Part shown: positions 8,681 through 42,928 of the stretch, piece after piece
How positions within the stretch are numbered: position 1 is the stretch's first letter
Layout: the number at the start of each line of letters is the position of its first letter
Virus genome (UHGV): UHGV-0213395
From: a virus
Direction: 5' to 3' (one strand)
DNA length: 43,313 nucleotides
Notes under the pieces: model-generated
What the model saw: only the letters and a program-made list of their open reading frames with translations
Told to the model about the DNA's origin: nothing
Databases searched by the model: none
Position numbers and translations under genes: made by a program

Positions 8681-8709
8681 TTGCACACCCCAATATAATA
8701 GGGTACTAT
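8681..8709 (+). promoter_or_regulatory. sigma70-type promoter TTGCAC-N17-TACTAT (conserved early promoter, copy 1)
   Basis: Near-identical ~33 bp to copies at 42872-42900 (+), 20239-20267 (-) and 19065-19093 (-); AGGAGG SD and ATG at 8737 downstream. Confidence 0.55.
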
Positions 8710-8736
8710 TCAGTTAACTTAAACAGGAGGTGAAAA

Positions 8737-17223: not shown

Positions 17224-17517
17224 TTATTTATGACGCCAGATGTATTGTCGTCTCTGCGGTTTAGTCGGAATATCATCGTACCCCAGCGATTTCCAGTAAT
17301 TAAATAGCCGGTTCGCGATAGCTGCGCGTTCCTTTGTTTTAAACTCTCCTAGATTCACGGCCTTTCCGTTCTGGAATCCACAGGCGCGGATAGCTTTACG
17401 CCGTTCTTGTATCTCTGGGTACAGCGCGTTACGGCGGCGCTTGTGTATACGTGTCTTCGCTCTCGGTGACAGCGGCGCAAGGCCGCTTCGTTTCAGGATG
17501 TCAGTTGCTAACGACAT
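17224..17517 (-). CDS. hypothetical basic protein (97 aa)
   Basis: Start moved to ATG at 17517, 1 nt past the stop of the upstream paralog gene. Confidence 0.45.
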   Translation of the reverse strand: MSLATDILKRSGLAPLSPRAKTRIHKRRRNALYPEIQERRKAIRACGFQNGKAVNLGEFKTKERAAIANRLFNYWKSLGYDDIPTKPQRRQYIWRHK

Positions 17518-17786
17518 CACTCCACCCCTTCCACATGTGTAACTGACCCACAGTTCGCGCACTCGACGTAATCAGGGTACTGGTCTTTGTATTTCTGTAG
17601 CTCGGCGTTTACTTCTGCCAGTCTCGACACAAGCCCTTCTATTTCCTTGTCGTCGTCGGCTAGACGTTCCTGGTAATAGTCGTCCAGTTCCTTATAGCTG
17701 TCGTACTCTACATAATCGCCGTATGCGTACTCAGCCATCTCAGGCTCTGGCAGGCCCCACGCTTTTACCTCATATCTCTGTACCAT
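17517..17786 (-). CDS. small protein, tandem paralog B (89 aa)
   Basis: Starts MVQRY, ends ELQKYKDQYPDYVECANCGSVTHVEGVE; C-terminus identical to neighbour A. Confidence 0.5.
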   Translation of the reverse strand: MVQRYEVKAWGLPEPEMAEYAYGDYVEYDSYKELDDYYQERLADDDKEIEGLVSRLAEVNAELQKYKDQYPDYVECANCGSVTHVEGVE

Positions 17787-17989
17787 TACTCCACCCCCTC
17801 CACATGTGTAACCGACCCGCAGTTCGCGCACTCGACGTAATCCGGGAACTGGTCCTTGTATTTCTGTAACTCGGCTTCAACTTCCAACAGCTTTAGGTCA
17901 AGATTCTGGTAGTCCTCAAACTTAACCCACTTCCCGTGGCGGTCAATGAAATGGTTGTCGGACCCATACTTAGAATATCTCTGTACCAT
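17786..17989 (-). CDS. small protein, tandem paralog A (67 aa)
   Basis: Start moved to internal ATG (MVQRYSKYG...); ends ELQKYKDQFPDYVECANCGSVTHVEGVE. Confidence 0.45.
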   Translation of the reverse strand: MVQRYSKYGSDNHFIDRHGKWVKFEDYQNLDLKLLEVEAELQKYKDQFPDYVECANCGSVTHVEGVE

Positions 17990-18604: not shown

Positions 18605-18621
18605 TCTGTCTCTCCTCTCGT

Positions 18622-18900
18622 TTATTCAACAGCGCCTGTTATTGCTATAAGCCCCGTGTTACCGCGGCGGCGATACTTACGAATCACCGTTTTAAGCTCT
18701 TCGTGACTACTCTGATGCCCGAAAGTGATCGGCAACTCTTCGCCGCCAGACATCCCGAACTCAGTGTCTGTAGGTTTGTTCCGCCACCCCTGAATAAACC
18801 CGAAACGGTCACGAGTTATATACCTGTAGTTGTTAGGGAGGGGCAACTCCAGCCCCTCAAAATCAATGGTCACGGTGTAGCTTCTAAAATTCATAGTCAA
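18622..18900 (-). CDS. hypothetical early protein (92 aa)
   Basis: Intact ORF (TTG start in track; ATG at 18894 also possible). Confidence 0.5.
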   Translation of the reverse strand: MTMNFRSYTVTIDFEGLELPLPNNYRYITRDRFGFIQGWRNKPTDTEFGMSGGEELPITFGHQSSHEELKTVIRKYRRRGNTGLIAITGAVE

Positions 18901-19033: not shown

Positions 19034-19064
19034 ATTCTGTCTCTCCTCTCGTTTGTGTAAATGA

Positions 19065-20204: not shown

Positions 20205-20238
20205 AACCCTCACTCCTCTGTCTCGTTTCGATAAGTGA

Positions 20239-20267
20239 ATAGTATCCTATTATGTTGGGGTGTGCAA
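20239..20267 (-). promoter_or_regulatory. conserved early promoter, copy 4 (TTGCAC-N17-TACTAT, minus strand)
   Basis: rc reads CTTGCACACCCCAACATAATAGGATACTATTCA, differing at about 2 positions from the plus-strand copies. Confidence 0.55.
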
Positions 20268-20869: not shown

Positions 20870-21156
20870 AAGGCGTAATTTTCCACAATAAAGCAGAAAA
20901 CGAAGTGTATATGGTTCACTCCGTGGCCGGAGAGTTCGCTTTATGCTTCAATATCTCTTGCCATCTTGATACCTACCGGCCTTTCTGCGTAGAAACAGAA
21001 ATGAAGCTAATTAGCTTACGCCAACTAAGCACCATGTCGGCATCGCTTAACGTAAGAGATAATCTCGAGTATATCGACTTCTATTTCGGCGATGATTTGG
21101 TCGAGGAATATTTTGAAGAGTATAAAAATTTGCTGGAAGGGTTGGCTAAACGGTAA
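20866..21156 (+). CDS. hypothetical protein (96 aa)
   Basis: ATGA overlap with upstream gene; intact ORF. Confidence 0.55.
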   Translation: MKGVIFHNKAENEVYMVHSVAGEFALCFNISCHLDTYRPFCVETEMKLISLRQLSTMSASLNVRDNLEYIDFYFGDDLVEEYFEEYKNLLEGLAKR

Positions 21157-21225
21157 AAAGAAACCCCAACGCCAGAACGTCGGGGCTAAAGTACAAATCA
21201 TCAAAGTAAGCATAAGGATTATACA

Positions 21226-21354
21226 ATGACAAAGTTAATAGTTCCACAGCTACGCCGCCAGAAACACGGCGCTGACTTCTTCGCACCGGTAAAGATGAAC
21301 CGCGCAATGCGCCGTATGCAGGAAGCCTTAGAACGTGCGGAGAAAAAGAAATGA
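21226..21354 (+). CDS. small basic protein (42 aa), coupled to helicase-primase
   Basis: AAGGA SD; ATGA overlap with start of 21351 gene. Confidence 0.3.
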   Translation: MTKLIVPQLRRQKHGADFFAPVKMNRAMRRMQEALERAEKKK

Positions 21355-23585
21355 ATATTGTTTTTGCAACGCTGCGTAACACATTCGATAAAAACCCTGT
21401 AGCGCGTGAGATGCCGCTCGAGCAGTTTGTGGAGTATGTCTGCGATACATCGAAGCGTTTATCCGTGGACCCGTCATGGACTAAGGAAGAGTACGACGCG
21501 GCCAAGATTAAACAGAAAGCTATTGCGCCTGTTGGCGGTCGCCGTAAGAACGCTATTCTGGAAGACAGTGTGGTTAAGTTCGATTTTGACCATCTCAACC
21601 GTACTCAGTACCGCGACCTTACCCGCAAATTCAAGAACGCACCGTTCTTCAATATTCTGCATACAACGGCATCGCATCAGCATGTGTGTAAAAACGGAGA
21701 TTACGCTTTCCGCGTTCTGGTTCCAGCTCGCACGCCGTTTAACTCTAACGACGCGTGGATGGTGCAACGTGCTATTTGTGCAGAGTTAGAAATAGACGAA
21801 GCGTTGCGCGACCACTGCACGGAAGATGGCAACCGCCTTATCTACCTGCCGCACAAAGAGTCGAAGATAACGGTTACAGAAGGGCGTGTTATCCGTGCCG
21901 AGCGGTACATCAAGAAAGCCGAAGAGATGGGGTTGCGTAAGCGTGAGGCTAAAACACTTGCCGCTGATGAGCATGGGCTTAACGCGGATATAGCACACTT
22001 CTGCGAAGCCGAGCTTGGCCTTGACGCTTTATCTTCCGGGCGCGGGTACGAAGTGCCATGCCCTAACGAACATCTGCATACAGGCAAGGGCTCCACCAGC
22101 ATAATGCTCGACGGTAAAGAAGTGCGCTTTGTCTGCCAGCATACAAACAACGGCGCTTGCACCGAGCTTAACCGCCGACAGCATTTGGCCCTGCGTATGT
22201 GCGGCCTGCCAGACGAGCTTAACGTAGACAAGCAACCTATCAGCATTAACAGCATTCGTGCGGCTCTGCCTGATTTACCGGAAGAAGAGATTGAAGAACT
22301 ACACCGCACAGAGAACGAGGACCCAGTAACTTGCAGCCTCGACGACCTGGAAGACGACGAGGACTCAGAGGAGGACTCAGAGGGGGACGGGTTACCGGAG
22401 CCGGTAAAGGCTGATTTCGTCGTTGAGGGGTACATGCCGTCGGATTGTATCTGGGATATCGTCGGGGAATCTGGCACGTACAAATCGTTCTATACGCTGG
22501 GGATGATGTACCTCAGCGCCGCCGGGTACAGGTTTGCGGGGGCGGATACCCAGCGTTGCCACCATTTCTATATTGATGGTGAGGGTGGCGCAGCTACACG
22601 CACCCGTATTGATGCACTAGCGGCTAAATATGGCGGGGAAGGTAAAGATTATGTACACGTCATCGATATGGGCGAAGTCGGCAAACTTAAAAGCCTGATT
22701 AAGTTAATGCGCGAAACTGCTGGCGACGAGCCAATTGGCATGGTTGCGTTCGACACCCTTAACCAGACCCTGGCACTGACGATTGATAAGTTCGACGAGA
22801 ACAGTTCATCAACAGCAATCGGCATGGGTAAAGTTATCGCCATTCTGAAAGAAGTACGCGATGCAACTAAAGCCGCAGTAGGCGTTGTCCACCATACGCC
22901 GAAGGGTGGAAAGAAAGCACGCGGCAGTGGGGCGCTGTATGCGGGTGTTGACGTGGAACTGACAATCGAACGTGCAACCGACCGTCAAATAAACGTATAC
23001 CACTCGAAATTTAAGCACGGTCCTCAACAGAAAACGGTTGGCATGGTGCTGGAGTCTGTGCAGTTCCGCGAAGCTCCGCCGCCGAAAGAGTACCGTGCGG
23101 TTGAGTTCCTGGGGGGCACAGAAGAATACGGCACAATCGTAAACCTGGACCTTCCTGAACCACACAAGGCGCTTGTGTTGATGCCGTGGGGTTTCGAGCC
23201 GTTCAAAACTGACGAGGAGAAAGAGCGGGAAGAAGGGTTGACGAAAGAAGGTAAGCAAAAAGTAAAGGAAGAAGTTAAACGCGGCAGGGATGAAGTAAGG
23301 AAGGAGTCAATACTTTCGGCACTGGAAGACCTGCAACAGTCAGATGACACAGGTCGCGGTTTTACTCAGCAGCAGATAGTGGCTCGTTCCGGTGACTTCT
23401 CTGTGACTAACACCCATCTTGATAAAATGTTGAAAGATGGAGAACTAATGCTTGGTTGCGATGCTAACGGCGAAGTAGTACCGAGAACATATCGTATACC
23501 CGAAAGAATAGGGGATAGATTAAGGCCGAAGACACTATACGAACCAAATGAGATGCTGGTGGTGACAGAGGAGGATTTGGAATAG
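21351..23585 (+). CDS. DNA helicase-primase (primase-like N-terminal region with RecA/DnaB-like NTPase domain, 744 aa)
   Basis: Walker A GESGTYKS and DnaB/RepA-like region; acidic C-terminus ...VVTEEDLE. Confidence 0.7.
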   Translation: MNIVFATLRNTFDKNPVAREMPLEQFVEYVCDTSKRLSVDPSWTKEEYDAAKIKQKAIAPVGGRRKNAILEDSVVKFDFDHLNRTQYRDLTRKFKNAPFFNILHTTASHQHVCKNGDYAFRVLVPARTPFNSNDAWMVQRAICAELEIDEALRDHCTEDGNRLIYLPHKESKITVTEGRVIRAERYIKKAEEMGLRKREAKTLAADEHGLNADIAHFCEAELGLDALSSGRGYEVPCPNEHLHTGKGSTSIMLDGKEVRFVCQHTNNGACTELNRRQHLALRMCGLPDELNVDKQPISINSIRAALPDLPEEEIEELHRTENEDPVTCSLDDLEDDEDSEEDSEGDGLPEPVKADFVVEGYMPSDCIWDIVGESGTYKSFYTLGMMYLSAAGYRFAGADTQRCHHFYIDGEGGAATRTRIDALAAKYGGEGKDYVHVIDMGEVGKLKSLIKLMRETAGDEPIGMVAFDTLNQTLALTIDKFDENSSSTAIGMGKVIAILKEVRDATKAAVGVVHHTPKGGKKARGSGALYAGVDVELTIERATDRQINVYHSKFKHGPQQKTVGMVLESVQFREAPPPKEYRAVEFLGGTEEYGTIVNLDLPEPHKALVLMPWGFEPFKTDEEKEREEGLTKEGKQKVKEEVKRGRDEVRKESILSALEDLQQSDDTGRGFTQQQIVARSGDFSVTNTHLDKMLKDGELMLGCDANGEVVPRTYRIPERIGDRLRPKTLYEPNEMLVVTEEDLE

Positions 23586-23594
23586 GTAAAAAGA

Positions 23595-23613
23595 AAGGGG
23601 CTTTAAGCCCCTT
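23595..23613 (-). terminator. terminator hairpin at end of XRE regulator gene
   Basis: AAGGGGC-TTTAA-GCCCCTT; U-run on the minus strand; the regulator stop codon lies in the loop. Confidence 0.5.
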
Positions 23614-23818
23614 CACCTAACGCCAGCCACTTGGCGTCTACTTCCAGAACTTCCGCCAGTTTGAACAGCGTTGCCGGGCGGACGTCCTGAGTTACTCCAA
23701 GTGCCAGTTGGTTAATCGCGCCCTGGGAAACGCCGGTCAGGGCCGCCAAACGGCGCTGGGAGATGCCGAGTTCTTTGCGGCGTTGTTCTACACGGATGCC
23801 TAGTTCAGATGGTTGCAT
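23603..23818 (-). CDS. Cro/CI-type (XRE family) HTH transcriptional regulator (71 aa)
   Basis: GISQRRLAALTGVSQGAINQLALG HTH_XRE signature; AAGGAG SD; antisense and monocistronic within the replication module. Confidence 0.75.
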   Translation of the reverse strand: MQPSELGIRVEQRRKELGISQRRLAALTGVSQGAINQLALGVTQDVRPATLFKLAEVLEVDAKWLALGEGA

Positions 23819-23882
23819 GTCAATTACTCCTTAGTCAGTTGATATGTGAATAGTACCATATTAATTATTTTAGAAAAGCCCA

Positions 23883-23911
23883 TTGACATGTGAATAGTTC
23901 GCTATTATAGT
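23883..23911 (+). promoter_or_regulatory. promoter TTGACA-N17-TATAGT with AATAG-N4-CTATT operator-like palindrome in the spacer
   Basis: Consensus -35, 17-nt spacer, good -10; near-identical architecture at 26566-26594; drives the gene at 23943. Confidence 0.55.
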
Positions 23912-23942
23912 TAGCCCATACCAAACGAGAGGAGAGAAACAA

Positions 23943-24443
23943 ATGTTAGAACAATTCTTAAAATTACTGGAACGTTTCGTAGTTGCACATGAACTGATTG
24001 CTGCGAACAGTGCGAAACAGTCAGCACAAGTTGCAGCGCCGTTAGAAGTAGAGACGGTAGTGTATACCAAAGAAGCGGTAGCTGAGTGCGAAAAAGAAGC
24101 AACAAAAGAAATCCCTGTTGAAGGTGAAGACATCGTTGACGCTAAACCAGCAGAAGAAGAGAAGCCGAAACGCAAGCCGCGTAAAGCTAAAGTAGAGGAG
24201 CCGACTCCAGAACCAGAAGAAGAGAAAGAAGAGGTCGATTACCAGTCTCTTCGTGACCAGATTCAGGCTATCGACGATGCAATTAACGAAGGTCCTAGCG
24301 ATGCTGCGTGCGACGATTCCGATGAACTGCTGGAGGAGTTCACCGGTAAGAAAATGAAGATTGCCGCGATTAAAGACGAAGACCTGGCTGAATACCTGAA
24401 ACGCCTGACGGCGATTAAGAACAAGTATTTCGAAGAAGAATAA
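23943..24443 (+). CDS. highly acidic low-complexity protein (166 aa)
   Basis: GAGAGGAGAG SD; Glu/Asp/Lys-rich central region; terminator at 24452-24470. Confidence 0.6.
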   Translation: MLEQFLKLLERFVVAHELIAANSAKQSAQVAAPLEVETVVYTKEAVAECEKEATKEIPVEGEDIVDAKPAEEEKPKRKPRKAKVEEPTPEPEEEKEEVDYQSLRDQIQAIDDAINEGPSDAACDDSDELLEEFTGKKMKIAAIKDEDLAEYLKRLTAIKNKYFEEE

Positions 24444-24451
24444 TTTATCTG

Positions 24452-24470
24452 GCGGCCTCCGGGCCGCTTT
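24452..24470 (+). terminator. rho-independent terminator
   Basis: GCGGCC-TCCG-GGCCGC followed by TTT. Confidence 0.5.
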
Positions 24471-24486
24471 AACAGAGGGTCGTAAT

Positions 24487-24759
24487 ATGATTTACCAACT
24501 CTACCGAGGTATTGACCGACGGGATAACACAGAGGCGTTGTGGCTGTTGCGTGCGCCGTCCGGCGCGCACCAGATGGAAGAGATGGCCTACCTCGGCAAA
24601 GTACCGAAGCCGAAAGATATAGGCCGTCACCTGTCGCAGATTAAGCGCACGACATTCGTTAAAAGTGACTTTTATGTCTTCGAGTCGATGTATAGCTGGG
24701 CGATGCATTGTGACCACAAGACACGACATTTAATTGACCAGTGGGAGAACCGGGTATGA
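24487..24759 (+). CDS. hypothetical protein (90 aa)
   Basis: AGAGGG SD; intact ORF. Confidence 0.55.
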   Translation: MIYQLYRGIDRRDNTEALWLLRAPSGAHQMEEMAYLGKVPKPKDIGRHLSQIKRTTFVKSDFYVFESMYSWAMHCDHKTRHLIDQWENRV

Positions 24760-25103
24760 CGGATAAATGGTGGCTTAATCTGCGTAGTGGTGACAAGGTT
24801 TACACCGTCGGTGACCGCAGAAAGAACAGCGGCGTAGCTACTGTGCTACAAAACGGCAAAAAGTACATCCACATTGCGCATGAAGCTCGAGCACTCCGCG
24901 TGAATAAATCGTCTGGAAGACTTGAGGATTACCCGAAAACATTAATATACAAAAGCGAAAAGCATCACATGGCCACTGTTGACGCAAGACGTAAGTTCGC
25001 AGGAATGCTGCAACAGTTAAGCGACTTACATCGTGATGATTCTTTCATCCCCACAGAAGAACAGCTACAGGCATTAAACTTGTATTTGGAGAGTTTACGA
25101 TGA
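24756..25103 (+). CDS. hypothetical protein (115 aa)
   Basis: Start moved to ATG 24756 (ATGA overlap with upstream stop). Confidence 0.55.
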   Translation: MTDKWWLNLRSGDKVYTVGDRRKNSGVATVLQNGKKYIHIAHEARALRVNKSSGRLEDYPKTLIYKSEKHHMATVDARRKFAGMLQQLSDLHRDDSFIPTEEQLQALNLYLESLR

Positions 25104-26380
25104 TTCTAAAAGAACGCGGCGGCAATAACGACGTACACGCCTTACTGTCACCGTCAGGTGCTAAAAAGTGGTTAACCTGCGCCGCATCACTGGCCTGTGA
25201 AAAGGATATTCCTGACACGTCCGGTAAAGCTGCGATATTAGGCACGGCAATGCACACCATAGCCGAGATACACCTTAACCAGTACATCAAAGGCACTGCG
25301 TTGCCATTAGAACGTGAAGTCGGCGCTTATGTACTGGACGAAGGAAAAGGCCAGATTAAGGCGTTAATCAGCCCTATGAAAGGCGCGGTACTGATTACGG
25401 CTGACATGATTGAACAGGTTCGCAAGTACACCGACTACTGCAAAGCGATTATCGATGTAGCGACTTACGCCAAGCTGGAAATGCGTGTCAATCTTACTGA
25501 GGTATTGCATCCGGGCTACAAAGTACCTGCTGAGAGTGAAGAAGGTAAGGAGGATGATTTAGAGACATTCGGGACAGCCGACTTAGTGGCGGTTATAGAA
25601 GGCTTTACAGGTGAAAGTAACTCCGCGATGCTCATTATCGGCGACCTTAAAACAGGACGGCATCGCGTCGAAGCGAAAGAAAACAAGCAGCTTATGCTTT
25701 ACGCTCTCGGTGTTTATCGTCGACTCAAGAGACGTTATAACATAACAACCGTTCGTCTGGTCATCTTCCAGCCTTACGCTGGGGGCGCGACAGAGTGGGA
25801 CATCTCGGTTGAAGGACTGGAACTGTTCGCTAAGTTCGCACAGAAACGCGCGCTGTTAGCGCTTGATGCGTATTTCCGTGGCAAGAAGAACCTGAAAGCG
25901 TCGGACTTCAAGCCATCGGTAGATGGTTGTCAGTGGTGCCGGTTCTCTGAACAATGCGCTGCGCGTACAAAGACGGTTAATTCTGTACTGGCGGAAGAAC
26001 TGGAAGACGACTTTGTGCTGGAACTGACGCCGGAGCAACTCGTAGCTGAGTATGAGAAGTTGCCGCTGTTGCGCCAGCACATCGACAAGGTTGAGAAAGC
26101 TATGGCGGCCGCGTTGCATTCAGGTAAGAAAGTTCCTGGTTACAAGTTGGTTGAAGGCCGCCCAGGTAATCGTGCATGGAAAGACGCGGAGAAAGTAACA
26201 GAACTCTACGGCGACAAGCTGACTAAAGAAGTGCTCATGTCACCTACCGAAGCTGTTAAAGTCATACCGGAAGAAGAACTGAAAGACTTCATTACCCGTA
26301 AGCCAGGCGCACCATGTGTCGCAACGGCAGACGACAAACGTCCTGAGTGGAATCAGGTAACAGAGGAGGATTTGGAATGA
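25100..26380 (+). CDS. PD-(D/E)XK nuclease with Cys cluster (RecB/Cas4-like recombination exonuclease, 426 aa)
   Basis: GTADLV ... IGDLKTG nuclease motifs; cysteines at WLTCAASLAC and CQWCRFSEQC; C-terminus ...QVTEEDLE. Confidence 0.65.
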   Translation: MILKERGGNNDVHALLSPSGAKKWLTCAASLACEKDIPDTSGKAAILGTAMHTIAEIHLNQYIKGTALPLEREVGAYVLDEGKGQIKALISPMKGAVLITADMIEQVRKYTDYCKAIIDVATYAKLEMRVNLTEVLHPGYKVPAESEEGKEDDLETFGTADLVAVIEGFTGESNSAMLIIGDLKTGRHRVEAKENKQLMLYALGVYRRLKRRYNITTVRLVIFQPYAGGATEWDISVEGLELFAKFAQKRALLALDAYFRGKKNLKASDFKPSVDGCQWCRFSEQCAARTKTVNSVLAEELEDDFVLELTPEQLVAEYEKLPLLRQHIDKVEKAMAAALHSGKKVPGYKLVEGRPGNRAWKDAEKVTELYGDKLTKEVLMSPTEAVKVIPEEELKDFITRKPGAPCVATADDKRPEWNQVTEEDLE

Positions 26381-26580
26381 TTCAAGTAAATGAAATGCCC
26401 ACAGATAAAGATTTTGTGATGATATGGCGCTGGGGCGGTTATATCCATTCGGAATCGTTTACGTTCCTGAACGGCACGATGGTGCGATACAACCATGTGG
26501 AGGATGAATTCGAACCCGTTGATATGAATGATTTCGAGAACATAGTCCGTATTGCGAAATTTTATTTGACACCTGAATAG
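26377..26580 (+). CDS. hypothetical protein (67 aa)
   Basis: ATGA overlap with nuclease stop; the GAGGAGGA SD lies inside the nuclease C-terminal codons. Confidence 0.5.
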   Translation: MIQVNEMPTDKDFVMIWRWGGYIHSESFTFLNGTMVRYNHVEDEFEPVDMNDFENIVRIAKFYLTPE

Positions 26581-26594
26581 TTAGCTATTATAGT
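26566..26594 (+). promoter_or_regulatory. promoter TTGACA-N17-TATAGT with operator-like palindrome (second copy)
   Basis: TTGACACCTGAATAGTTAGCTATTATAGT; drives the SSB-like gene at 26648. Confidence 0.5.
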
Positions 26595-26647
26595 TCTAAT
26601 CACTGGCCGGGCAGCTCCCGGAGTAAACTTAAAAGCGAGAAATCAAG

Positions 26648-27274
26648 ATGGGCATTAAACTGAATCTGCGTAAAGTAAACACTGCATGGGTTAACGTATT
26701 CGAACGCGAAAAAGACCGTGAAAACGACGACGGCTCAATCACTAAAGGCCAGTACAGCGCAACTATCATCCTGCCGTCTGACCATGCTCAAATCGACGCG
26801 CTCTACGACACCGTTTACGCTGTGGTTGAAGAAGCGTTGGGTGCAGCCGCCGCAGAGAAATGGATGAAGTCAAACTACGGCGAAGGCAAGCACATGGATA
26901 AATGCGCGATTAAGGACATCGCCGAGCGCGACAATCCGTTTGAAGACTTCCCGGAAGGTTTCTACTTCAAAGCGAAAGCGCAGAAACAACCTCTGATTGT
27001 AACATCTAAAAAAGGCGAAACTCAGGTAGAACCAGACTTCAATGTAGAAGGCGAACAGATTGAAGGTGAACAGGTGTACAGTGGCTGCGTCGCTAACGTA
27101 AGCGTTGAAATCTGGTTCAGCCAGAAATATAAAGTACTCGGCGTTAACCTGCTGGCAATTAAGTACGTTGGCGAAGGTAAAGCGTTTGGAGGCTCTAAAG
27201 TTGCTGCAAGCGTCGACGACCTGGAAGACGACGAAGAAGATGAAGCACCGCGCCGCGAACGTCGCCGCCGTTAA
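26648..27274 (+). CDS. SSB-like ssDNA-binding protein candidate with acidic C-terminal tail (208 aa)
   Basis: Sits between nuclease and polymerase as in DUF2800/DUF2815/PolA-type modules; C-terminal DDLEDDEEDE then basic tail. Confidence 0.5.
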   Translation: MGIKLNLRKVNTAWVNVFEREKDRENDDGSITKGQYSATIILPSDHAQIDALYDTVYAVVEEALGAAAAEKWMKSNYGEGKHMDKCAIKDIAERDNPFEDFPEGFYFKAKAQKQPLIVTSKKGETQVEPDFNVEGEQIEGEQVYSGCVANVSVEIWFSQKYKVLGVNLLAIKYVGEGKAFGGSKVAASVDDLEDDEEDEAPRRERRRR

Positions 27275-27333: not shown

Positions 27334-27489
27334 ATGTTTTTCTGTAAGCACGTATACCGATATATGAAACCGCTTCCGTGGTACGCGGATGAGTACCGCG
27401 CCGGGTACAGGCATGTGTGGATTTGCCGTGATTGTATGAAAATAAGACTCAGCGAAACGAAGGCACTGGATTTAAGGAAAAAGAAATGA
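27334..27489 (+). CDS. small Cys-containing protein (51 aa), coupled to DNA polymerase
   Basis: AGGGT SD; MFFCKH...ICRDCM; ATGA overlap with polymerase start. Confidence 0.3.
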   Translation: MFFCKHVYRYMKPLPWYADEYRAGYRHVWICRDCMKIRLSETKALDLRKKK

Positions 27490-29666
27490 GCTACTTATAC
27501 CTGGACTTTGAAACATTCTCCGAAGCCGATTTAAAGAAAGTCGGCTCCTACGCTTACGCCGAACACCCGACTACCGAAGTGCTTATCTGCACATATGCTT
27601 TTGACGACGAGCCTGTGCGGGTATGGGATTGCACCGACGGCAGCGACATGCCGGGTGATTTGCACCGCGCACTGCGCCGCCTGGTTAAGCCGAACAGTCG
27701 TATTAAGATGGTGTGGCACAACGGCTCAATGTTCGACAGGCTCATCATGAAACACTGCTGGGGCTTTGATATTCCCGTAAGCAACACCATTGATACGATG
27801 ATTTGGGCGTTTCGTCACGCGCTGCCGGGTTCACTTGATGCGCTGTGCGAAGTGCTGGGCGTGTCTGCAGACAACGCGAAAGATAAACGCGGCAAGGCTC
27901 TGATTAAGCGTTTCTCTAAACCGACGCCGAAGAACTACAAAATCCGCCGCTACACCGCAGAAACTCACCCTGACGAGTGGGCGATGTTCATCAGGTACGC
28001 CGTGAGCGACATCACTGCGATGCGTGAAGTCTTCCATAAGCTGCCGCGTTGGGGTAACTCCGAGTTCGAAGACCGTGTACTGGAACTGGACCAGTTGATT
28101 AACGACCGTGGGTTTAAGGTTGATGTGACGCTGGCGGAAGCCGCGATTGAAGCCGTGGAAAAACACAAGGCCCAGCTACAGGAAGAAGCACAGCGCAAAT
28201 ACGGCGGCTCGCTTACTGGTAAAGACTTCCTGCCGATTCTGCGTGAACTTGCACCAGCGCACCGCATCCACAACGCGCAGAAGTCTACGCTTAACGACCT
28301 GTTGGCGGATGATGATTTACCGGACGACGCACGCACGATTATCGAAATGCGCCTCGGGGCCGCGTCCACAGCGTCAACGAAATATAACCCGCTGCTGTTA
28401 GGGCGCTCGTCGGACGACCGCCGTCGTGGTTGCATTCAGTACGGCGGAGCCAAGCGTACATTACGATTTGCCGGTAAAGGATTTCAGCCGCAGAACCTCG
28501 CGCGTGGGTACTATCACGATGATGAACTGGATAAAGGTATTTCAGCGTTACTTAAGGGCCGCGCGCATCGCCGTTTCGATGTCGCTAAGCTAACGGCATC
28601 GACGGTGCGTAGCTGCATTATCCCGGAAGCCGGAAAAAAGTTTGTCGTCGCCGATTACTCTAACGTTGAAGGTCGGGGGCTTGCGTGGCTGGCAGGCGAA
28701 GAAACCGCGCTAGATACGTTCCGCGCCGGGCTGGACATTTACTGTGTAACCGCGGGTAAGATGTTCGGCATGGAGCCGGATTACATTAAGAAGGAACGCA
28801 AAGACTTGCGCCAGATTGGTAAAGCCTGCGAGCTTGGCCTCGGCTACGCTGGTGGTGTTGGCGCTTTCGTTCAGTTTGCTAAGAACCTCGGACTTGACCT
28901 TGTTGATATGTCAAAAACAATGGACGGTACTTTCCCGGACCACATCTGGGCGGCTACTGCACGCGGCTATGAATGGGCACGTATTCAGGAAGCCAAGCGA
29001 CCGCCGCGACCCGGGGAGAAGGATGACCGACCATCGTATATTCTTGATAAGAAAGTGTGGCGTACCTGTGACGCTATCAAGCGTATGTGGCGAGAGTCAC
29101 ACCCTGAAACAGTAGCTTTCTGGCGAGATATTGAAGACGCAGCTATGGCCGCTATCCGCAATCCAGGTAAAGAGTTCACCGCGGGGCCTAGGGGGGTTAA
29201 GTTTTCGCGCAACGTAGAGACAGACAACAACGGCAACAAAGTCGCCGGCTGGTGGTTGCGCATGACGTTGCCGTCGGGTCGCGTTATGTCTTATCCGGGC
29301 GTCGGGTTAAGCGTGTCGAAAGAAACAGACGAAGATGGAAAAGTGTCTACTAACGTACGCATCAAGTACCAGGGGGAGAACCAGTTAACCCGTCAGTGGG
29401 GCTTCCAGTACACCTACTCTGGTAAACTCGTGGAAAACTGTACTCAGGCGCTGTGCCGTGATTTGCTGGCCAATGCACTGCTGAACGTTGAAGCAAACGG
29501 CTATCCTATTGTGCTTCACGTACACGACGAAATTATCTGCGAAACACCAGATACGCCAGAATACAATGTTGCAGAGCTTGAGCGGTTGATGTGCGAATTA
29601 CCGGAGTGGGCGGAGGGGTTCCCTCTTGTAGCGGAAGGTGCGGAGATGAAGCGTTATGCCAAGTAA
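27486..29666 (+). CDS. family A DNA polymerase with N-terminal 3'-5' exonuclease domain (726 aa)
   Basis: Exo motif YLDFETFS; Pol A motif A VVADYSNVEGR, motif B RKDLRQIGKACELGLGYAGG, motif C VLHVHDEIICE. Start moved to ATG 27486 (AAGGAAAAAG SD). Confidence 0.85.
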   Translation: MSYLYLDFETFSEADLKKVGSYAYAEHPTTEVLICTYAFDDEPVRVWDCTDGSDMPGDLHRALRRLVKPNSRIKMVWHNGSMFDRLIMKHCWGFDIPVSNTIDTMIWAFRHALPGSLDALCEVLGVSADNAKDKRGKALIKRFSKPTPKNYKIRRYTAETHPDEWAMFIRYAVSDITAMREVFHKLPRWGNSEFEDRVLELDQLINDRGFKVDVTLAEAAIEAVEKHKAQLQEEAQRKYGGSLTGKDFLPILRELAPAHRIHNAQKSTLNDLLADDDLPDDARTIIEMRLGAASTASTKYNPLLLGRSSDDRRRGCIQYGGAKRTLRFAGKGFQPQNLARGYYHDDELDKGISALLKGRAHRRFDVAKLTASTVRSCIIPEAGKKFVVADYSNVEGRGLAWLAGEETALDTFRAGLDIYCVTAGKMFGMEPDYIKKERKDLRQIGKACELGLGYAGGVGAFVQFAKNLGLDLVDMSKTMDGTFPDHIWAATARGYEWARIQEAKRPPRPGEKDDRPSYILDKKVWRTCDAIKRMWRESHPETVAFWRDIEDAAMAAIRNPGKEFTAGPRGVKFSRNVETDNNGNKVAGWWLRMTLPSGRVMSYPGVGLSVSKETDEDGKVSTNVRIKYQGENQLTRQWGFQYTYSGKLVENCTQALCRDLLANALLNVEANGYPIVLHVHDEIICETPDTPEYNVAELERLMCELPEWAEGFPLVAEGAEMKRYAK

Positions 29667-30022: not shown

Positions 30023-30351
30023 CTAAAGAGGGCCGCATCCAGAAATACGCAAAAGAGCGATTCGAGGCCATTGGTGGCCTCGTTCGTAAACTTTCCTACG
30101 AAGGACGTTCAGGCGCTCCTGACCTGCTGGCAATTCTACCCGGCGGCATCGTCTGGTTCGTCGAGGTGAAGAAAGACGAAAACACTAAGCCAGACCCGCA
30201 CCAGCTACGGGAACACGAGCGTATACGTAAACGTGGCGCAAATGTTTTTGTCGTTGGTTCGATAAAACAGATTGACACCCTAATAGCAGACTATTATAGT
30301 AAGCACATACCCCAACAATATAAGGAATTTAGAAATGAAACACGAATATGA
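30019..30351 (+). CDS. VRR-NUC domain nuclease (110 aa)
   Basis: PDLLAI ... VEVKK PD-(D/E)XK core in a ~100 aa protein. Confidence 0.65.
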   Translation: MTKEGRIQKYAKERFEAIGGLVRKLSYEGRSGAPDLLAILPGGIVWFVEVKKDENTKPDPHQLREHERIRKRGANVFVVGSIKQIDTLIADYYSKHIPQQYKEFRNETRI

Positions 30352-32734: not shown

Positions 32735-32868
32735 ACATCATAGCCCCGATTCCAGCATTGCAAAAACGTATCAAGGAACTCGAAGAGGAGGTTCTACGCC
32801 TACGGCAACAGAGAGATGCCGCTAATGCGCAACTGGCGTTTGTGCTGGAGAAGTTATCAGAAGAGTAG
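32731..32868 (+). CDS. small coiled-coil protein (45 aa)
   Basis: ATGA overlap with helicase stop; heptad-like KELEEEVLRLRQQ; followed by terminator. Confidence 0.3.
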   Translation: MNIIAPIPALQKRIKELEEEVLRLRQQRDAANAQLAFVLEKLSEE

Positions 32869-32872
32869 AGAA

Positions 32873-32893
32873 AAGGCCCCATTATGGGGCCTT
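32873..32893. terminator. bidirectional terminator (AAGGCCCC-ATTAT-GGGGCCTT)
   Basis: Perfect 8-bp stem between convergent helicase-operon and tailspike gene ends; T-rich on both sides. Confidence 0.7.
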
Positions 32894-32897
32894 AGTT

Positions 32898-34829
32898 TTA
32901 AGCTATAGATGGAGTTTGACGCCAATTCGCCCCGTCAAAAACGTACATTATAGTGTCTCCGCCCGCAATGGTCTTACCAACCGCCCCGTTATTTGCGATT
33001 CCACCAGACCCTGGATTATGGTTCATAACGAACGAGATAGCGGATGCGTTTCGGATTATTAGAAGAAAACCTGGCTTAACCGGCTGACCATAGTCGTCAT
33101 TAATAGCAATACTGCTGAATGAACTGCCGGCGGATATCGCGGTGACAGACACAACCCCAGAGGGCCCCAAACTGTCGCCAACAATCATTGTAGCCGCAGC
33201 GCCGCTAAGATTCTGTTCTTTATACCCCGGCCTAGGTTTGCCGTTTCCTATTACTTTCGCCTTAACAGATGATAATCTATTATTAAGATAACTGTTACCG
33301 AGATTCATTGTCATTAGGTCACTGCGGTATTGACGGACTAGTTGGATATTTGACCCGCTAAAAAGCCCTACGGCGGCGCTAACCTCAAACGCAGTATCGG
33401 CGGGAGCGCCAGGTTTCAGGGACCCATAGAATCCTGTTACCATCAGTTGTTCACAGAAACCTGCAGCCATAAATTTCTGGCTATTTACTGCGGTTATACT
33501 ATCTAAACTAACATTGTGCAACGTGCCAGCCGAAGTGCCTTCGACGAGCACATCCGCATAAGTAGATCCTGAATAATTTGCCCCAACAATTTGCACGTCA
33601 TTAGCTACGTTTTCGGACTTAATCCGCATATGTATAGCGGAATCGATGCTTTGTAAGTTTGCGCAGGTAATACGCTCAAGTTGTGCGGTTGTGCTGTAAA
33701 TCCAAACACCTTGACTGGAAACACCATTACCGACATTAATGTGCCCGTCCAGCACCACATTTTTTGCCGTGCTGAACTCACTATCAGATTTAATGATAAC
33801 GCCAGTATCACAGCTTACGGTTATTACGCCTCTGGCAACAACGTTTCTTGACTTAATCGCGAGGCCAAAAAGATTATAACCGCCAGTTATTTGAGATACA
33901 TGCGCGGAATCGTAGCCTTCAACAAGAACGCTGTGGTACGGGTCCGAACCGGAAAGGCCCGCGGCAACTACATCTTGAACAATACAAGACCCACCAGCAT
34001 AGTTATCGGTCGATAACACCAGACAATCTCCGGGGGAGCCTGTAGGCCTACGCACACCAAGTGACTTAATAATCACCTGGCTTGCGGAAAATCTTAAATT
34101 GCCAATTATAACAGACCCGTTAGACATAGAATTGGAGATAAGATTGTAATCAGGACGTCTGTCACCGATTATTGTTACGGGTGAAGTTATAATACCGCCA
34201 TTCCAAACATAAGATTTTGCGGGGATTCTTAACGCGATACCGTTGCTTGAGCAATAGTCAATAGCCTGTTGCAAAGGCGCGGTGTCGTCGGTAACACCAT
34301 CACCCACCGCGCCGAAATCATCGGGTGTCATATACCCTATTTTGAAATGGTCAACCTCGCCTTGCACTGTGCGACCCGAAGACGTACCGACTAGCCCTGC
34401 GCCAGTGCTTAGGGCCAAATCACGGCGCAATGCAGCTTCACTAACGGAAACCCATGCGGTCTGGCCTACTCCGCCCGTAGACGCCGGGGTTGAAGATGCC
34501 GGGATGGTTTTTGGCAGGGCACCTTTCCATGCATAATAGTTGCCGTCGCCTGATGGCCCTGGCCACAACACCGCCAGGTCAGCGTCGTTAACGCCCAAAG
34601 TCCCACCTGTTTCGAATGTGAATGGCGCAGGTCTGAACCCGGCGTCACGCAACACGGCCGGGAGCGTCTTCTGAGTCTGCCCTGTAACCTGATTTGTCGC
34701 GTAATCGATATCAGCACCCGTAGCTACACCGCCAGCTTTACCGGTGATAACCTCGGCTTCAAAAATTTGGTGTTTCTTGGCGGTTTGTAAATCCGCCAGG
34801 CTTAAAACGTCACCGCATCCGCTTGACAT
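32898..34829 (-). CDS. tailspike / tail fibre with beta-helix (pectate-lyase-like) domain candidate (643 aa)
   Basis: Last gene of tail module; Gly/Asn/Ser/Thr-rich repetitive composition typical of right-handed beta-helix receptor-binding proteins. Confidence 0.6.
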   Translation of the reverse strand: MSSGCGDVLSLADLQTAKKHQIFEAEVITGKAGGVATGADIDYATNQVTGQTQKTLPAVLRDAGFRPAPFTFETGGTLGVNDADLAVLWPGPSGDGNYYAWKGALPKTIPASSTPASTGGVGQTAWVSVSEAALRRDLALSTGAGLVGTSSGRTVQGEVDHFKIGYMTPDDFGAVGDGVTDDTAPLQQAIDYCSSNGIALRIPAKSYVWNGGIITSPVTIIGDRRPDYNLISNSMSNGSVIIGNLRFSASQVIIKSLGVRRPTGSPGDCLVLSTDNYAGGSCIVQDVVAAGLSGSDPYHSVLVEGYDSAHVSQITGGYNLFGLAIKSRNVVARGVITVSCDTGVIIKSDSEFSTAKNVVLDGHINVGNGVSSQGVWIYSTTAQLERITCANLQSIDSAIHMRIKSENVANDVQIVGANYSGSTYADVLVEGTSAGTLHNVSLDSITAVNSQKFMAAGFCEQLMVTGFYGSLKPGAPADTAFEVSAAVGLFSGSNIQLVRQYRSDLMTMNLGNSYLNNRLSSVKAKVIGNGKPRPGYKEQNLSGAAATMIVGDSLGPSGVVSVTAISAGSSFSSIAINDDYGQPVKPGFLLIIRNASAISFVMNHNPGSGGIANNGAVGKTIAGGDTIMYVFDGANWRQTPSIA

Positions 34830-42871: not shown

Positions 42872-42900
42872 TTGCACACCCCAATATAATAGGGTACTAT
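42872..42900 (+). promoter_or_regulatory. conserved early promoter, copy 2 (TTGCAC-N17-TACTAT)
   Basis: Identical over ~33 bp to the copy at 8681-8709; GAGG SD and ATG 42929 downstream. Confidence 0.55.
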
Positions 42901-42928
42901 TCACATGTAACTTACTGAGGAAATAATT

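What the first reader, a model, noticed from the sequence alone, without database searches (positions are those of the whole stretch)
23565..26380. Replication proteins share an identical acidic C-terminal peptide and 20 nt of identical DNA
The helicase-primase ends ...VVTEEDLE and the RecB/Cas4-like nuclease ends ...QVTEEDLE. The underlying DNA ACAGAGGAGGATTTGGAAT is identical at 23565-23583 and 26360-26378. The SSB-like protein carries a related acidic tail (DDLEDDEEDE). Shared acidic C-terminal tails are a known way for phage replisome proteins to dock onto a common partner, as in T7. In the nuclease the same nucleotides also serve as the SD for the next gene.
Basis: partly seen in the sequence, partly recalled or inferred. 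Interest (0 to 1): 0.6.

Follow-up and report, generated by a model that had tools for sequence, protein, structure and literature searches.

The report
Shared docking tail on phage replication proteins
Three replication and recombination proteins of this E. coli phage carry the same short acidic peptide with a leucine, which is conserved in distant relatives and so probably plugs them into one common partner as in phage T7, while the identical DNA beneath it is a side effect.

Summary
The helicase-primase (21351-23585) and the DUF2800 nuclease (25100-26380) both end in VTEEDLE. The DNA is identical over 19 nt, or 23 nt with one mismatch.

The signal lies in the protein. All 68 helicase-primase tails and 71 of 73 nuclease tails in related phages keep [ST]-acidic-acidic-D-L near the C-terminus. 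This holds down to 30% and 44% identity, with different codons.

The motif occurs four times in this phage. It is also in the primase-helicase linker (SLDDLEDDE) and at the start of the tail of the gp2.5-like SSB (SVDDLEDDE).

In all 22 lineages examined across four bacterial phyla, the DUF2800 nuclease tail resembles the proximal tail motif of its own SSB, and in 21 of them it carries the same hydrophobic anchor (L, F, W or Y). Pairing test on 18 of them: p about 1e-5.

This fits a T7-like docking peptide for a common receptor. The receptor is not identified. The SSB core groove and the PolA polymerase are the leading candidates.

The DNA identity is not conserved in deeper lineages. In the nuclease the GAGGAGGA codons also serve as the Shine-Dalgarno site for an overlapping cassette gene.

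I rate this a new variant of a known kind, of moderate interest.

The parts
21351..23585 (+). Replicative helicase-primase gene (744 aa), which carries two copies of the motif
   Evidence: Translation. Pfam AAA_25 at E 5e-17. PHROG 3228, replicative helicase-primase. Annotated as such in PQ850621.
23562..23582 (+). Codons for the C-terminal tail VTEEDLE of the helicase-primase. The DNA repeat copy 1 is 23561-23583 and the stop TAG is 23583-23585.
   Evidence: The tail motif is conserved in 68 of 68 related loci and in most family representatives. The D-L is invariant across lineages.
22335..22363 (+). Internal motif copy S329-LDDLEDDE-D338 in the primase-helicase linker. Its DNA matches the SSB motif DNA at 27 of 29 nt.
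   Evidence: The linker motif C[ST]x[DE]xDL[ED] is conserved in the Kaguna, Jersey, Klebsiella and Dhillonvirus lineages.
25100..26380 (+). DUF2800 / PD-(D/E)XK (RecB/Cas4-like) nuclease gene, 426 aa
   Evidence: Translation. Pfam DUF2800 at E 9e-65 and PDDEXK_1.
26357..26377 (+). Codons for the C-terminal tail VTEEDLE of the nuclease. The DNA repeat copy 2 is 26356-26378 and the stop TGA is 26378-26380.
   Evidence: The motif is conserved in 71 of 73 related loci.
26363..26379 (+). GAGGAGGA (26363-26370), a 6-nt spacer and the ATG at 26377: the Shine-Dalgarno site and start of the overlapping 67-aa cassette ORF (26377-26580)
   Evidence: The codon form GAGGAG or GAAGAA tracks the presence or absence of an overlapping downstream ATG. 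The downstream ORFs are variable cassettes.
26648..27274 (+). gp2.5-like (DUF2815 / Enc34-type) SSB and annealing protein gene, 208 aa. It is a candidate receptor through its core groove and also a motif carrier.
   Evidence: Translation. Pfam Enc34_ssDNA-bd. PDB 4JG2 hit. AF2 core pLDDT about 90.
27209..27237 (+). Proximal SSB tail motif S188-VDDLEDDEE. It aligns with the AEDDFD / AYDE / AWDE motif of other DUF2815 SSBs.
   Evidence: The Enc34 crystal shows this part of the tail lying in the groove of a neighbouring molecule.
27245..27271 (+). Basic C-terminal end APRRERRRR of the SSB, which is unusual for this SSB family
   Evidence: contrasted with the family-typical ...DDFL[GS]* or ...EDF* tips.
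27486..29666 (+). Family A DNA polymerase gene. It has no tail motif and is a candidate receptor by analogy with T7 gp5.
   Evidence: The internal DDDL is part of a structured conserved PolA segment, not a tail motif.

Best explanation
The repeat encodes a short linear docking motif: a run of acidic residues around a hydrophobic anchor, here [ST]-[DE]-[DE]-D-L-[E/S/K], placed on flexible segments. In this phage it sits at the C-terminus of the helicase-primase, at the C-terminus of the DUF2800 nuclease, in the primase-helicase linker, and at the start of the tail of the gp2.5-like SSB. I infer that all copies bind the same receptor site. The helicase-primase, the resection nuclease and the SSB would then be recruited to, or handed over at, one hub of the phage replication and recombination machinery, as the tails of T7 gp4 and gp2.5 are at gp5. 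The receptor is not identified. The two leading candidates are the concave beta-sheet and ssDNA groove of the SSB core and a basic patch on the PolA polymerase. The 19-23 nt of identical DNA is not a functional element in its own right. It reflects the same peptide encoded with Shine-Dalgarno-compatible codons, and probably a shared DNA origin of the motif copies. Shown here: motif presence, conservation, co-variation and the codon patterns. Inferred: binding, the partner and the consequences.
For: (1) Conservation under divergence. The motif is present in 68 of 68 helicase-primase tails and 71 of 73 nuclease tails in the Kaguna/Jersey, Klebsiella 37P2-like and Dhillonvirus loci, with varied codons. 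Examples are VASDEDLNS* with QASDEDLS*, and SATDDDLKD* with EATDEDLSNE*. Of the 18 helicase-primase representatives with E < 1e-30 (50%-identity clusters), 15 are about full length, and 12 of those end in an acidic tail with a D-L or D-I core, for example TAEYDDLAD*, SATNADLED* and VDEDDLSDD*; the other 3 lack it. D-L accounts for 2 of 4 invariant columns in the last 80 aligned positions. (2) Four copies in three proteins of one module. (3) Generality and co-variation. In all 22 lineages examined across phages of Proteobacteria, Firmicutes, Actinobacteria and Bacteroidetes, the DUF2800 tail resembles the proximal motif of the cognate SSB tail, and in 21 of them it has the same anchor residue (Bacata is the exception). 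Examples: IPLA35 AEDDFDKL and AEDDFDEL; GaryLarson SLEQEFA and SLEDEFA; BU2-1 TIDDFD and SIDDFD; Enc34 GAYDDED and DAYDEDE; YSD1 AWDDED and AWDEDE; JS26 WDDEEE and WDDEED; L201 AEEEFSVV and AADEFSAV. On the 18 lineages scored, cognate pairs score above non-cognate pairs, 23.6 against 17.6, with permutation p about 1e-5, and p about 2e-4 with one genome per clade. (4) The anchor column is homologous across the SSB family, with L in this lineage and F, W or Y elsewhere. (5) A structural precedent for a receptor: in crystals of Enc34 ORF6, two other DUF2815 proteins and T7 gp2.5, the tail lies in the concave sheet of a neighbouring molecule, burying 842 A2 in Enc34. AF2 gives pLDDT of about 71-73 for the two 10-residue blocks (161-180) that hold the proximal AEDDF motif of a typical family member, against 55 for its tip. 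(6) The T7 precedent for shared tails binding one polymerase patch.
Against: For the window's own SSB, AF2 places the tail with low confidence (pLDDT 52-60). The SSB-nuclease 6-mer similarity in this particular phage is not outstanding against acidic background: it ranks 9th and 6th of 18. The motif differs from T7 in lacking a terminal aromatic residue. In Casjensviridae (Enc34, YSD1, JS26, PM87) a similar acidic C-terminus also occurs on various other proteins: the ORF3-like protein, and in some of them the SNF2-type helicase, the small terminase and one polymerase. That fits a generic property of DNA-binding proteins as well as it fits a single hub. The DNA identity exceeds what independent codon choice predicts (p about 0.004 and about 0.002 for the two pairs, and my estimate from it). 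A DNA-level process has therefore contributed.
Confidence: 0.7

Rival explanations
1. The acidic tails act in cis as ssDNA mimics that auto-inhibit each protein's own DNA-binding surface. They resemble each other because they mimic the same thing, not because they share a partner.
For: The tails of T7 gp2.5 and Enc34 SSB modulate DNA binding, and the gp2.5 tail competes with ssDNA for the same surface (and the reference listed). In Casjensviridae many DNA-binding proteins, including the small terminase, have similar acidic ends.
Against: Generic charge mimicry does not predict an invariant D-L, an identical heptapeptide in two unrelated folds, or lineage-specific co-variation of the anchor residue and its flanks between nuclease and SSB.
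Confidence: 0.13
2. The tails recruit a host protein, for example by imitating the C-terminal tip of the host SSB, rather than a phage partner.
For: Many DUF2815 SSBs end in ...DDFL*...EDF* or ...DDLPF*, which resemble bacterial SSB tips. One nuclease fragment ends ...AIPQF*.
Against: The motif shared with the nuclease and helicase-primase is the proximal one, not the tip. In this phage the motif has no Pro-Phe, and the SSB tip is basic. The anchor type follows phage lineage among phages of the same host genus: Leu in Kagunavirus and Dhillonvirus, Phe in E. coli phage 689R2.
Confidence: 0.08
3. The primary feature is the DNA repeat: a recombination or gene-conversion substrate, or a portable Shine-Dalgarno/ATGA junction for accessory cassettes. 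On this view the peptide identity is its by-product.
For: Codon identity is greater than independent choice predicts. A second motif pair is also nearly identical in DNA. Variable cassettes abut the tail codons. In L025 the inserted ORF ends ...KEDLE* using the 3' end of the cassette-less nuclease allele, so the tail codons were duplicated during insertion.
Against: The peptide is conserved where the DNA is not, at 10-14 of 18 nt in most of the Jersey-type, Klebsiella-phage and Dhillonvirus loci. Within-genome DNA identity is no higher than between-genome identity, so there is no sign of ongoing concerted evolution (p 0.28 and 0.44). No cassette family is shared between the two sites. The helicase-primase copy in this window has no downstream gene.
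Confidence: 0.07
4. The match is a chance coincidence of low-complexity acidic ends with no function.
For: Acidic runs are common in these proteins.
Against: None of 100 shuffles gave a match. The motif is conserved across about 70% sequence divergence. The cognate-pair permutation test gives p about 1e-5.
Confidence: 0.02

Closest known systems
Phage T7 replisome: acidic C-terminal tails of gp4 helicase-primase and gp2.5 SSB binding basic patches of gp5 DNA polymerase
   Same: A helicase-primase and a gp2.5-family SSB carry related acidic tails with a hydrophobic anchor. T7 has ...TDWSNDTDF* and ...SWDEDDEESEEADEDGDF*. In T7 the tails bind the same polymerase patches and are needed for processivity and for SSB displacement. 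The SSB here is a homolog of gp2.5, and the module also has a family A polymerase.
   Different: Here the anchor is Leu followed by 1-3 residues, not a terminal Phe. The helicase-primase has a second, internal copy. A PD-(D/E)XK nuclease carries the tail, whereas the T7 gp6 exonuclease does not. The SSB tail ends in a basic peptide. The polymerase is too diverged from gp5 to locate an equivalent basic patch. The receptor is unknown.
Tail-to-groove contacts of DUF2815 / T7-type SSBs (Enc34 ORF6, PDB 4JG2, 4KLK, T7 gp2.5)
   Same: This is the same SSB family. The proximal acidic-aromatic part of the tail lies in the concave seven-stranded sheet of a neighbouring molecule in four crystal structures. 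The window's SVDDLE aligns with that segment.
   Different: Those contacts were described as SSB-SSB contacts with possible roles in oligomerisation or cooperativity. That the cognate nuclease and primase carry copies of the same segment is not mentioned in the papers I read and came up in none of my searches.
Bacterial SSB C-terminal tip (DDDIPF-type) as an interaction hub
   Same: A short acidic-hydrophobic peptide on a disordered tail mediates many replication, repair and recombination contacts, including with exonucleases (established knowledge).
   Different: The polarity is reversed. Here several client proteins carry the peptide, instead of one SSB presenting it to many clients. There is no Pro-Phe terminus.
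Two-component phage recombinases: exonuclease plus annealing protein pairs such as lambda Exo-Beta and RecE-RecT
   Same: A resection nuclease and an ssDNA annealing protein are encoded side by side (the duf2800-gp2.5-polA module) and are expected to need a specific physical link (my own knowledge of those systems).
   Different: The protein families are different. The proposed link here is a tail peptide mimicking the annealing protein's own tail, which is not how the lambda or Rac pairs are known to interact.

Membership tests
T7-type shared acidic-tail docking (gp4 / gp2.5 to gp5) | The replicative helicase-primase ends in a short acidic tail | tested here: met
   It ends ...VVTEEDLE*. The tail is conserved in orthologs.
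T7-type shared acidic-tail docking (gp4 / gp2.5 to gp5) | A gp2.5-family SSB carries a related acidic tail | tested here: met
   Pfam Enc34_ssDNA-bd. The tail reads SVDDLEDDEEDE. One caveat is that it is followed by the basic end APRRERRRR*.
T7-type shared acidic-tail docking (gp4 / gp2.5 to gp5) | The C-terminal residue is an aromatic (Phe) that is essential for function | tested here: not met
   The tails end in D-L-E*. The anchor is Leu, 1-4 residues from the end in relatives. T7 has ...DF*.
T7-type shared acidic-tail docking (gp4 / gp2.5 to gp5) | The tails bind basic patches of the family A DNA polymerase | not testable with these tools
   Only monomer prediction is available. The polymerase cannot be aligned to gp5 by BLASTP.
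DUF2800 - DUF2815 (gp2.5-like) - PolA replication/recombination module | The three genes are adjacent and co-oriented | tested here: met
   25100-26380, 26648-27274 and 27486-29666, all on the + strand. The module is described in PMC8093625.
Bacterial SSB-Ct tip motif ([DE][DE][DE][IL]PF-COOH) | Terminal Pro-Phe with a free carboxylate after an acidic run | tested here: not met
   No protein in the window ends this way. Some other DUF2815 SSBs do, ending ...DDLPF*.
Beta-clamp binding motif (QL[SD]LF type) | Gln-x-x-Leu-x-Phe-like consensus | tested here: not met
   The sequences VTEEDLE and SLDDLEDDE have no Gln or Phe positions. The consensus is recalled from memory.

The most novel reading that the evidence does not exclude
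Across the whole DUF2800-DUF2815-PolA module in phages of at least four bacterial phyla, the resection nuclease is tethered to the gp2.5-like SSB/annealase by molecular mimicry. Its C-terminal tail is a copy of the SSB's own proximal tail motif and plugs into the same concave groove of the SSB core that the SSB tail occupies in crystals. In Kagunavirus-like phages the helicase-primase uses the same plug twice, so the SSB rather than the polymerase is the hub that hands ssDNA between unwinding, priming, resection and annealing. The basic end of this lineage's SSB would be a new regulatory cap on that exchange.
Probability: 0.3. Interest if true: 0.7.

Novelty: new variant of a known kind. Interest (0 to 1): 0.55.

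Why it matters
Shared acidic tails are textbook for T7 but have been studied in very few systems. The DUF2800-gp2.5-like-PolA module is one of the most widespread phage replication and recombination cassettes. A tblastn search found it in 1,538 phage records, from Salmonella and E. coli to Staphylococcus, Streptococcus and Bacteroides phages. Its nuclease is essentially uncharacterised.

A conserved, co-varying tail peptide gives a concrete, cheap hypothesis for how the nuclease, SSB and helicase-primase are coupled. It supplies point mutants to test this: the Leu anchor and a deletion of the last 7 residues. It also offers a specificity code (L, F, W, Y) that may explain which module parts can be shuffled between mosaic phages, or ported for recombineering.

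The DUF2800 protein of a BASEL Dhillonvirus was recently reported as the trigger of a type IX retron. Its disordered C-terminus may therefore be relevant to immune sensing too.

Tried and rejected
1. First homolog search with the nuclease. It returned only relatives at 82% identity or above (nearly all 89% or more), which was useless for deep conservation. I replaced it with fetched loci and a spread tblastn search.

2. Scans of viral contigs with the Enc34, IPLA35 and APSE nucleases. They gave only close relatives and added little.

3. The internal DDDL of the polymerase (LLADDDLPDD) as a fifth motif copy. It is part of a structured, conserved PolA segment and reads EDPDFPDE in Dhillonvirus. 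Rejected.

4. KDEDLAEY in the 166-aa protein (23943-24443). It corresponds in position to ...EEKRAEFLAEL / ...TDENLAEV, a segment shared by the upstream-ORF proteins of other lineages, so it looks like a structural segment rather than a tail. Homology of those ORFs is only weakly supported. Rejected.

5. Locating a T7-like basic patch by aligning PolA to gp5. No meaningful alignment was obtained.

6. AF2 on the window SSB to see its own tail dock. The tail pLDDT was only 52-60, with a 4-residue helix at VDDL. Inconclusive. A typical family member gave about 71-73 at the proximal motif, but contacts are not reported by the tool.

7. Ongoing gene conversion between motif copies. Within-genome DNA identity is no higher than between-genome identity.

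8. Exchange of accessory cassettes between the two tail sites. No cassette family is shared.

9. Pfam annotation of the conserved ORF upstream of the nuclease. No hits.

10. Literature searches for a prior description of shared tails in this module found nothing. The searched library is incomplete.

Full report
**What the window is.** The region 21000-27000 is 100% identical to Escherichia phage NicoleGrasset_Bas72 (PQ850621.1). This is a roughly 43.7-kb siphovirus of the Kagunavirus/Jerseyvirus group, and the window is its reverse complement. Elsewhere the window differs slightly from that record; for example, the polymerase C-terminus differs. The genes around the finding are listed below.

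| Coordinates | Strand | Gene |
|---|---|---|
| 21351-23585 | + | Helicase-primase, AAA_25 helicase domain |
| 23603-23818 | - | Convergent HTH regulator |
| 23943-24443 | + | Unknown ORF, 166 aa |
| 24487-24759 | + | Unknown ORF |
| 24756-25103 | + | Unknown ORF, ProQ-C-like |
| 25100-26380 | + | DUF2800 / PD-(D/E)XK nuclease |
| 26377-26580 | + | 67-aa ORF |
| 26648-27274 | + | gp2.5-like (DUF2815 / Enc34-type) SSB |
| 27486-29666 | + | Family A DNA polymerase |

**Checking the observation.** The 19-mer ACAGAGGAGGATTTGGAAT occurs at 23565-23583 and at 26360-26378.
- With one G/A difference the match extends to 23 nt, at 23561-23583 and 26356-26378.
- No further copy exists with up to 3 mismatches, and none of 100 shuffles gives a match.
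- About 0.003 exact 19-mers are expected by chance.
- The two proteins end ...MLVVTEEDLE* and ...WNQVTEEDLE*.
- No other ORF of the window carries [ST][DE][DE]DL at its end.

The SSB does contain ...ASVDDLEDDEEDE. This is followed by APRRERRRR*, so the SSB does not end in an acidic tail. GAGGAGGA at 26363-26370 lies 6 nt before the ATG at 26377, which overlaps the nuclease stop as ATGA.

**Protein or DNA?** I fetched 74 related loci carrying the nuclease at 93-44% identity. They fall into three groups: Kagunavirus/Jerseyvirus, Klebsiella 37P2/VLCpiS11a-like phages, and Dhillonvirus (Gluttony, SO-1).
- All 68 recovered helicase-primase C-termini carry the motif. So do 71 of 73 nuclease C-termini; the exceptions are one L-to-S change and one truncated ORF.
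- The peptide persists where the proteins are only 30-35% (helicase-primase) and 44-47% (nuclease) identical. Examples are VASDEDLNS* with QASDEDLS*, SATDDDLKD* with EATDEDLSNE*, and VATDDDLAD* with EATDEDLE*.
- The codons differ. Identity between the two sites over 18 nt ranges from 10 to 17 across genomes.
- In an alignment of helicase-primases from the four lineages, only 4 of the last 80 columns are invariant. Two of these are the D-L of the tail.
- An exhaustive search of 50%-identity cluster representatives gave 18 hits with E < 1e-30, of which 15 are about full length. Twelve of those 15 end in an acidic tail with a D-L or D-I core, for example TAEYDDLAD*, TASEADLE*, SATNADLED*, VDEDDLSDD* and PEDDYDLDD*. 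The other three (P0242, P0243, P0245) lack that core.

This is selection on the peptide, not on the DNA.

**More copies of the motif.** A repeat scan found a second near-identical DNA pair. The segment 22335-22363 in the helicase-primase matches 27209-27237 in the SSB at 27 of 29 nt, with 18 nt exact. They encode S329-LDDLEDDED and S188-VDDLEDDEE.
- The first lies in the linker between the primase and helicase parts. It is conserved in every lineage: TCSLDDLEDDE, TCDEEDLADEE, QCTDEDLDDDP, VCTDADLDNEP and VCTDFDLENEP.
- The second is the first segment of the SSB tail, about 12 residues after the end of the OB fold. It is likewise conserved: SVDDLEDD, ANDDDLDD, CSDEDLGDD and ATDDDLGDD.

The motif therefore occurs four times in three proteins.

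**Generality.** A tblastn search with the nuclease found the module in 1,538 phage records. I fetched 15 distant phages and four independent metagenomic or genomic contigs chosen through their SSB. In all 22 lineages examined, the C-terminus of the DUF2800 nuclease resembles the proximal motif of the cognate SSB tail. In 21 of them it carries the same hydrophobic anchor, and usually the same flanking residues. The exception is Xylella phage Bacata, where the similarity is weak (nuclease ...SLELLDD*, SSB ...DDDDDDIGL*).

| Phage or contig | Nuclease tail | SSB proximal tail |
|---|---|---|
| Staphylococcus IPLA35 | AEDDFDKL* | AEDDFDEL... |
| Paenibacillus GaryLarson | SLEQEFA | SLEDEFA |
| Bacteroides BU2-1 | TIDDFDE | SIDDFDF |
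| Corynebacterium Dina | AEDDFA | AESDFG |
| E. coli 689R2 | NDFDDVS | DDFDDIS |
| Enc34 | GAYDDEDE | DAYDEDED |
| YSD1 | GAWDDED | DAWDEDE |
| JS26 | MWDDEEE | AWDDEED |
| PM87 | VWDD* | AWDDED |
| RcPacific | DDFDDL | DDFDEL |
| L201 | AEEEFSVV | AADEFSAV |

- On the 18 lineages scored, the best-6-mer score of cognate nuclease-SSB pairs (mean 23.6) exceeds that of non-cognate pairs (17.6). The permutation p is about 1e-5, or about 2e-4 with one genome per clade.
- The window's own pair is not exceptional by this measure, ranking 9th and 6th of 18. Purely acidic runs score well against each other.
- In an alignment of SSBs the anchor falls in one column: L in this lineage, and F, W or Y elsewhere.
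- In nearly all of 120 further DUF2815 proteins the proximal motif is a variant of AEDDFD (AEDDFD, AESDFD/G, [DE]DEFA; one reads GEDFS). A distinct tip follows...DDFL[GSDN]*...EDF* or ...DDLPF*.
- The primase or helicase-primase carries the tail only in some lineages. These are this one and the Casjensviridae, for example Enc34 ...DPFDDEDEV* and YSD1 ...GEWDDEV*. VirE-type primases lack it.
- In Casjensviridae (Enc34, YSD1, JS26, PM87) a similar acidic end also occurs on other proteins, though not on all of them in every phage: the ORF3-like protein, and in some the SNF2-type helicase, the small terminase and, in JS26, the polymerase.

**Mechanism.** The closest precedent is T7. There gp4 (...DWSNDTDF*) and gp2.5 (...SWDEDDEESEEADEDGDF*) share acidic tails. 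These bind basic patches of gp5 and support processivity, polymerase exchange and SSB displacement.

A second relevant fact concerns the SSB core. In crystals of Enc34 ORF6, of two other DUF2815 proteins and of T7 gp2.5, the tail lies in the concave seven-stranded sheet of a neighbouring molecule, burying 842 A2 in Enc34. The last 11 residues are disordered. By my residue count the ordered, docked part is the proximal ...DTSDAYD segment. That is the part the nuclease copies.

AF2 gives moderate confidence (mean pLDDT about 71-73 for residues 161-180) for the stretch holding the proximal AEDDF motif of a typical family member, against 55 for its tip. For the window's SSB it gives only 52-60. 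The tool does not report contacts, so this support is weak.

I therefore propose that the motif is a docking peptide for one receptor site, and that the SSB, the nuclease and the helicase-primase compete for it or are exchanged on it. Whether the receptor is the SSB core groove, a basic patch of PolA, both as in T7, or another protein cannot be decided here.

**The DNA identity.** Given the same peptide, independent codon choice would give 18 of 18 identical bases with probability about 0.004. My estimate for the second pair, from the same codon table, is about 0.002. Something beyond the peptide is therefore involved.

For the nuclease, that something is translation initiation of the next gene.
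- Alleles with an overlapping ATGA use ACA GAG GAG GAT (22 of 22 have a GGAGG-type site).
- Alleles followed by TAA and the SSB promoter use AGT GAA GAA GAT (26 of 29 lack such a site). The three exceptions have a downstream ATG starting just past the stop.
- The gene that follows is a variable cassette. At least six unrelated small-ORF families sit exactly between the tail codons and the TTGACACC -35 box.

The helicase-primase copy keeps Shine-Dalgarno-like codons in 22 genomes that have no downstream gene, including this window. Here the stop is followed directly by the terminator hairpin of the convergent regulator gene. In 16 other genomes a cassette overlaps the helicase-primase stop as well, and 15 of these have Shine-Dalgarno-like tail codons.

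The two pairs use different codons for the D-L core. The two tails use GAT TTR, while the linker and SSB use GAC CTG. This suggests two separate DNA copying events or ancestries. There is no sign of ongoing concerted evolution: within-genome identity equals between-genome identity, with p 0.28 and 0.44. The DNA identity fades in the Dhillonvirus lineage.

The repeat is thus best seen as a by-product of three things: a shared peptide, a shared Shine-Dalgarno constraint, and a probable shared origin. As a side effect, the tail codons serve as the left homology arm for cassette exchange. In L025 the inserted ORF ends ...KEDLE*, using the 3' end of the cassette-less nuclease allele.

**Comparison with what is known, and novelty.** The principle of shared acidic tails docking on a common partner is known from T7. 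The DUF2800-gp2.5-PolA module has been noted, and so have the SSB tail contacts. A 2026 preprint notes a disordered C-terminal region in a Dhillonvirus DUF2800 protein that triggers a type IX retron.

The searches I could run found no description of the following:
- the nuclease and the helicase-primase carrying copies of the SSB's proximal tail motif;
- the co-variation of the anchor residue across phyla;
- the Leu-type variant with an internal second copy and a basic SSB end.

The library searched is incomplete, so this is absence of evidence only. I classify the finding as a new variant of a known kind.

**Verdict.** The identical DNA is incidental. The receptor and all functional consequences remain to be tested.

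Noticed in passing
window 22335-22363 and 27209-27237: A second pair of near-identical coding DNA (27 of 29 nt, 18 nt exact) encodes SLDDLEDDED in the helicase-primase linker and SVDDLEDDEE in the SSB tail. A weaker third copy at 25994-26011 encodes EELEDD inside the nuclease.
   Followed up: yes
window 27245-27271; L051-L074 SSB genes: The SSB of the Kaguna, Jersey, Klebsiella-phage and Dhillonvirus lineages ends in a conserved basic peptide, (A)PR(R/K)(E)RRRR*. In the Klebsiella-phage and Dhillonvirus groups, 2-4 tandem acidic/basic repeats precede it. The typical acidic DUF2815 tips are ...DDFL* or ...EDF*. The function is unknown.
   Followed up: partly
window 26377-26580; L002-L050 downstream of the nuclease and helicase-primase genes: Hypervariable small accessory ORFs lie between the nuclease tail codons and the SSB promoter, in at least 6 unrelated families. 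At least 4 further families follow the helicase-primase in relatives. In L025 the inserted ORF ends ...KEDLE*, using a duplicated copy of the nuclease 3' end.
   Followed up: partly
window 20228-20257, 23839-23868, 23883-23912, 26566-26595, 30272-30301: A five-copy family of 30-nt promoter-like elements reads TTGACAnnTGAATAGTnnnCTATTATAGTT. An AATAG(N5)CTATT palindrome lies between the -35 and -10 boxes, possibly an operator for the HTH regulator at 23603-23818.
   Followed up: no
window 23943-24443; L076 9090-9992, L192 6612-6998, L078 3681-4055 and others: The ORF upstream of the nuclease (166 aa here, PHROG 3127, no Pfam hit) shows weak but consistent pairwise similarity to the ORF at the same position in distant phages. 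It may be a fourth conserved, uncharacterised component of the module. In Casjensviridae it also ends in the acidic tail.
   Followed up: partly
window 23594-23614: A GC-rich hairpin, GAAGGGGCTTAAAGCCCCTT, lies 9 nt after the helicase-primase stop. It scores as an intrinsic terminator for the minus-strand HTH gene only.
   Followed up: no
window 8681-8712 and 42872-42903; 18605-18623 and 19036-19054; 17515-17615 and 17784-17884; 1363-1398 and 32868-32903: Other direct repeats in the window: an identical 32-mer, an identical 19-mer, a 101-nt pair at 89% identity, and a pair of terminator-like hairpins at 81% identity. None was examined.
   Followed up: no
helicase-primase genes of L002, L005, L010, L014, L033, L036: The helicase-primase is mosaic. 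Some relatives share only about 60% identity over the whole protein, and in others the best match to the window covers only residues 349-744, at 75-97% identity. The C-terminal tail and the linker motif stay constant. SSB alleles (46-66% identity) and polymerase alleles (74-78%) are also reshuffled.
   Followed up: no
L199 2-217 (metagenomic contig): A nuclease fragment ends ...ADFNNTDEDPDAIPQF*, and its cognate SSB ends ...DDLPF*. In some lineages the nuclease may therefore also copy the distal tip, which resembles the host SSB tip.
   Followed up: no
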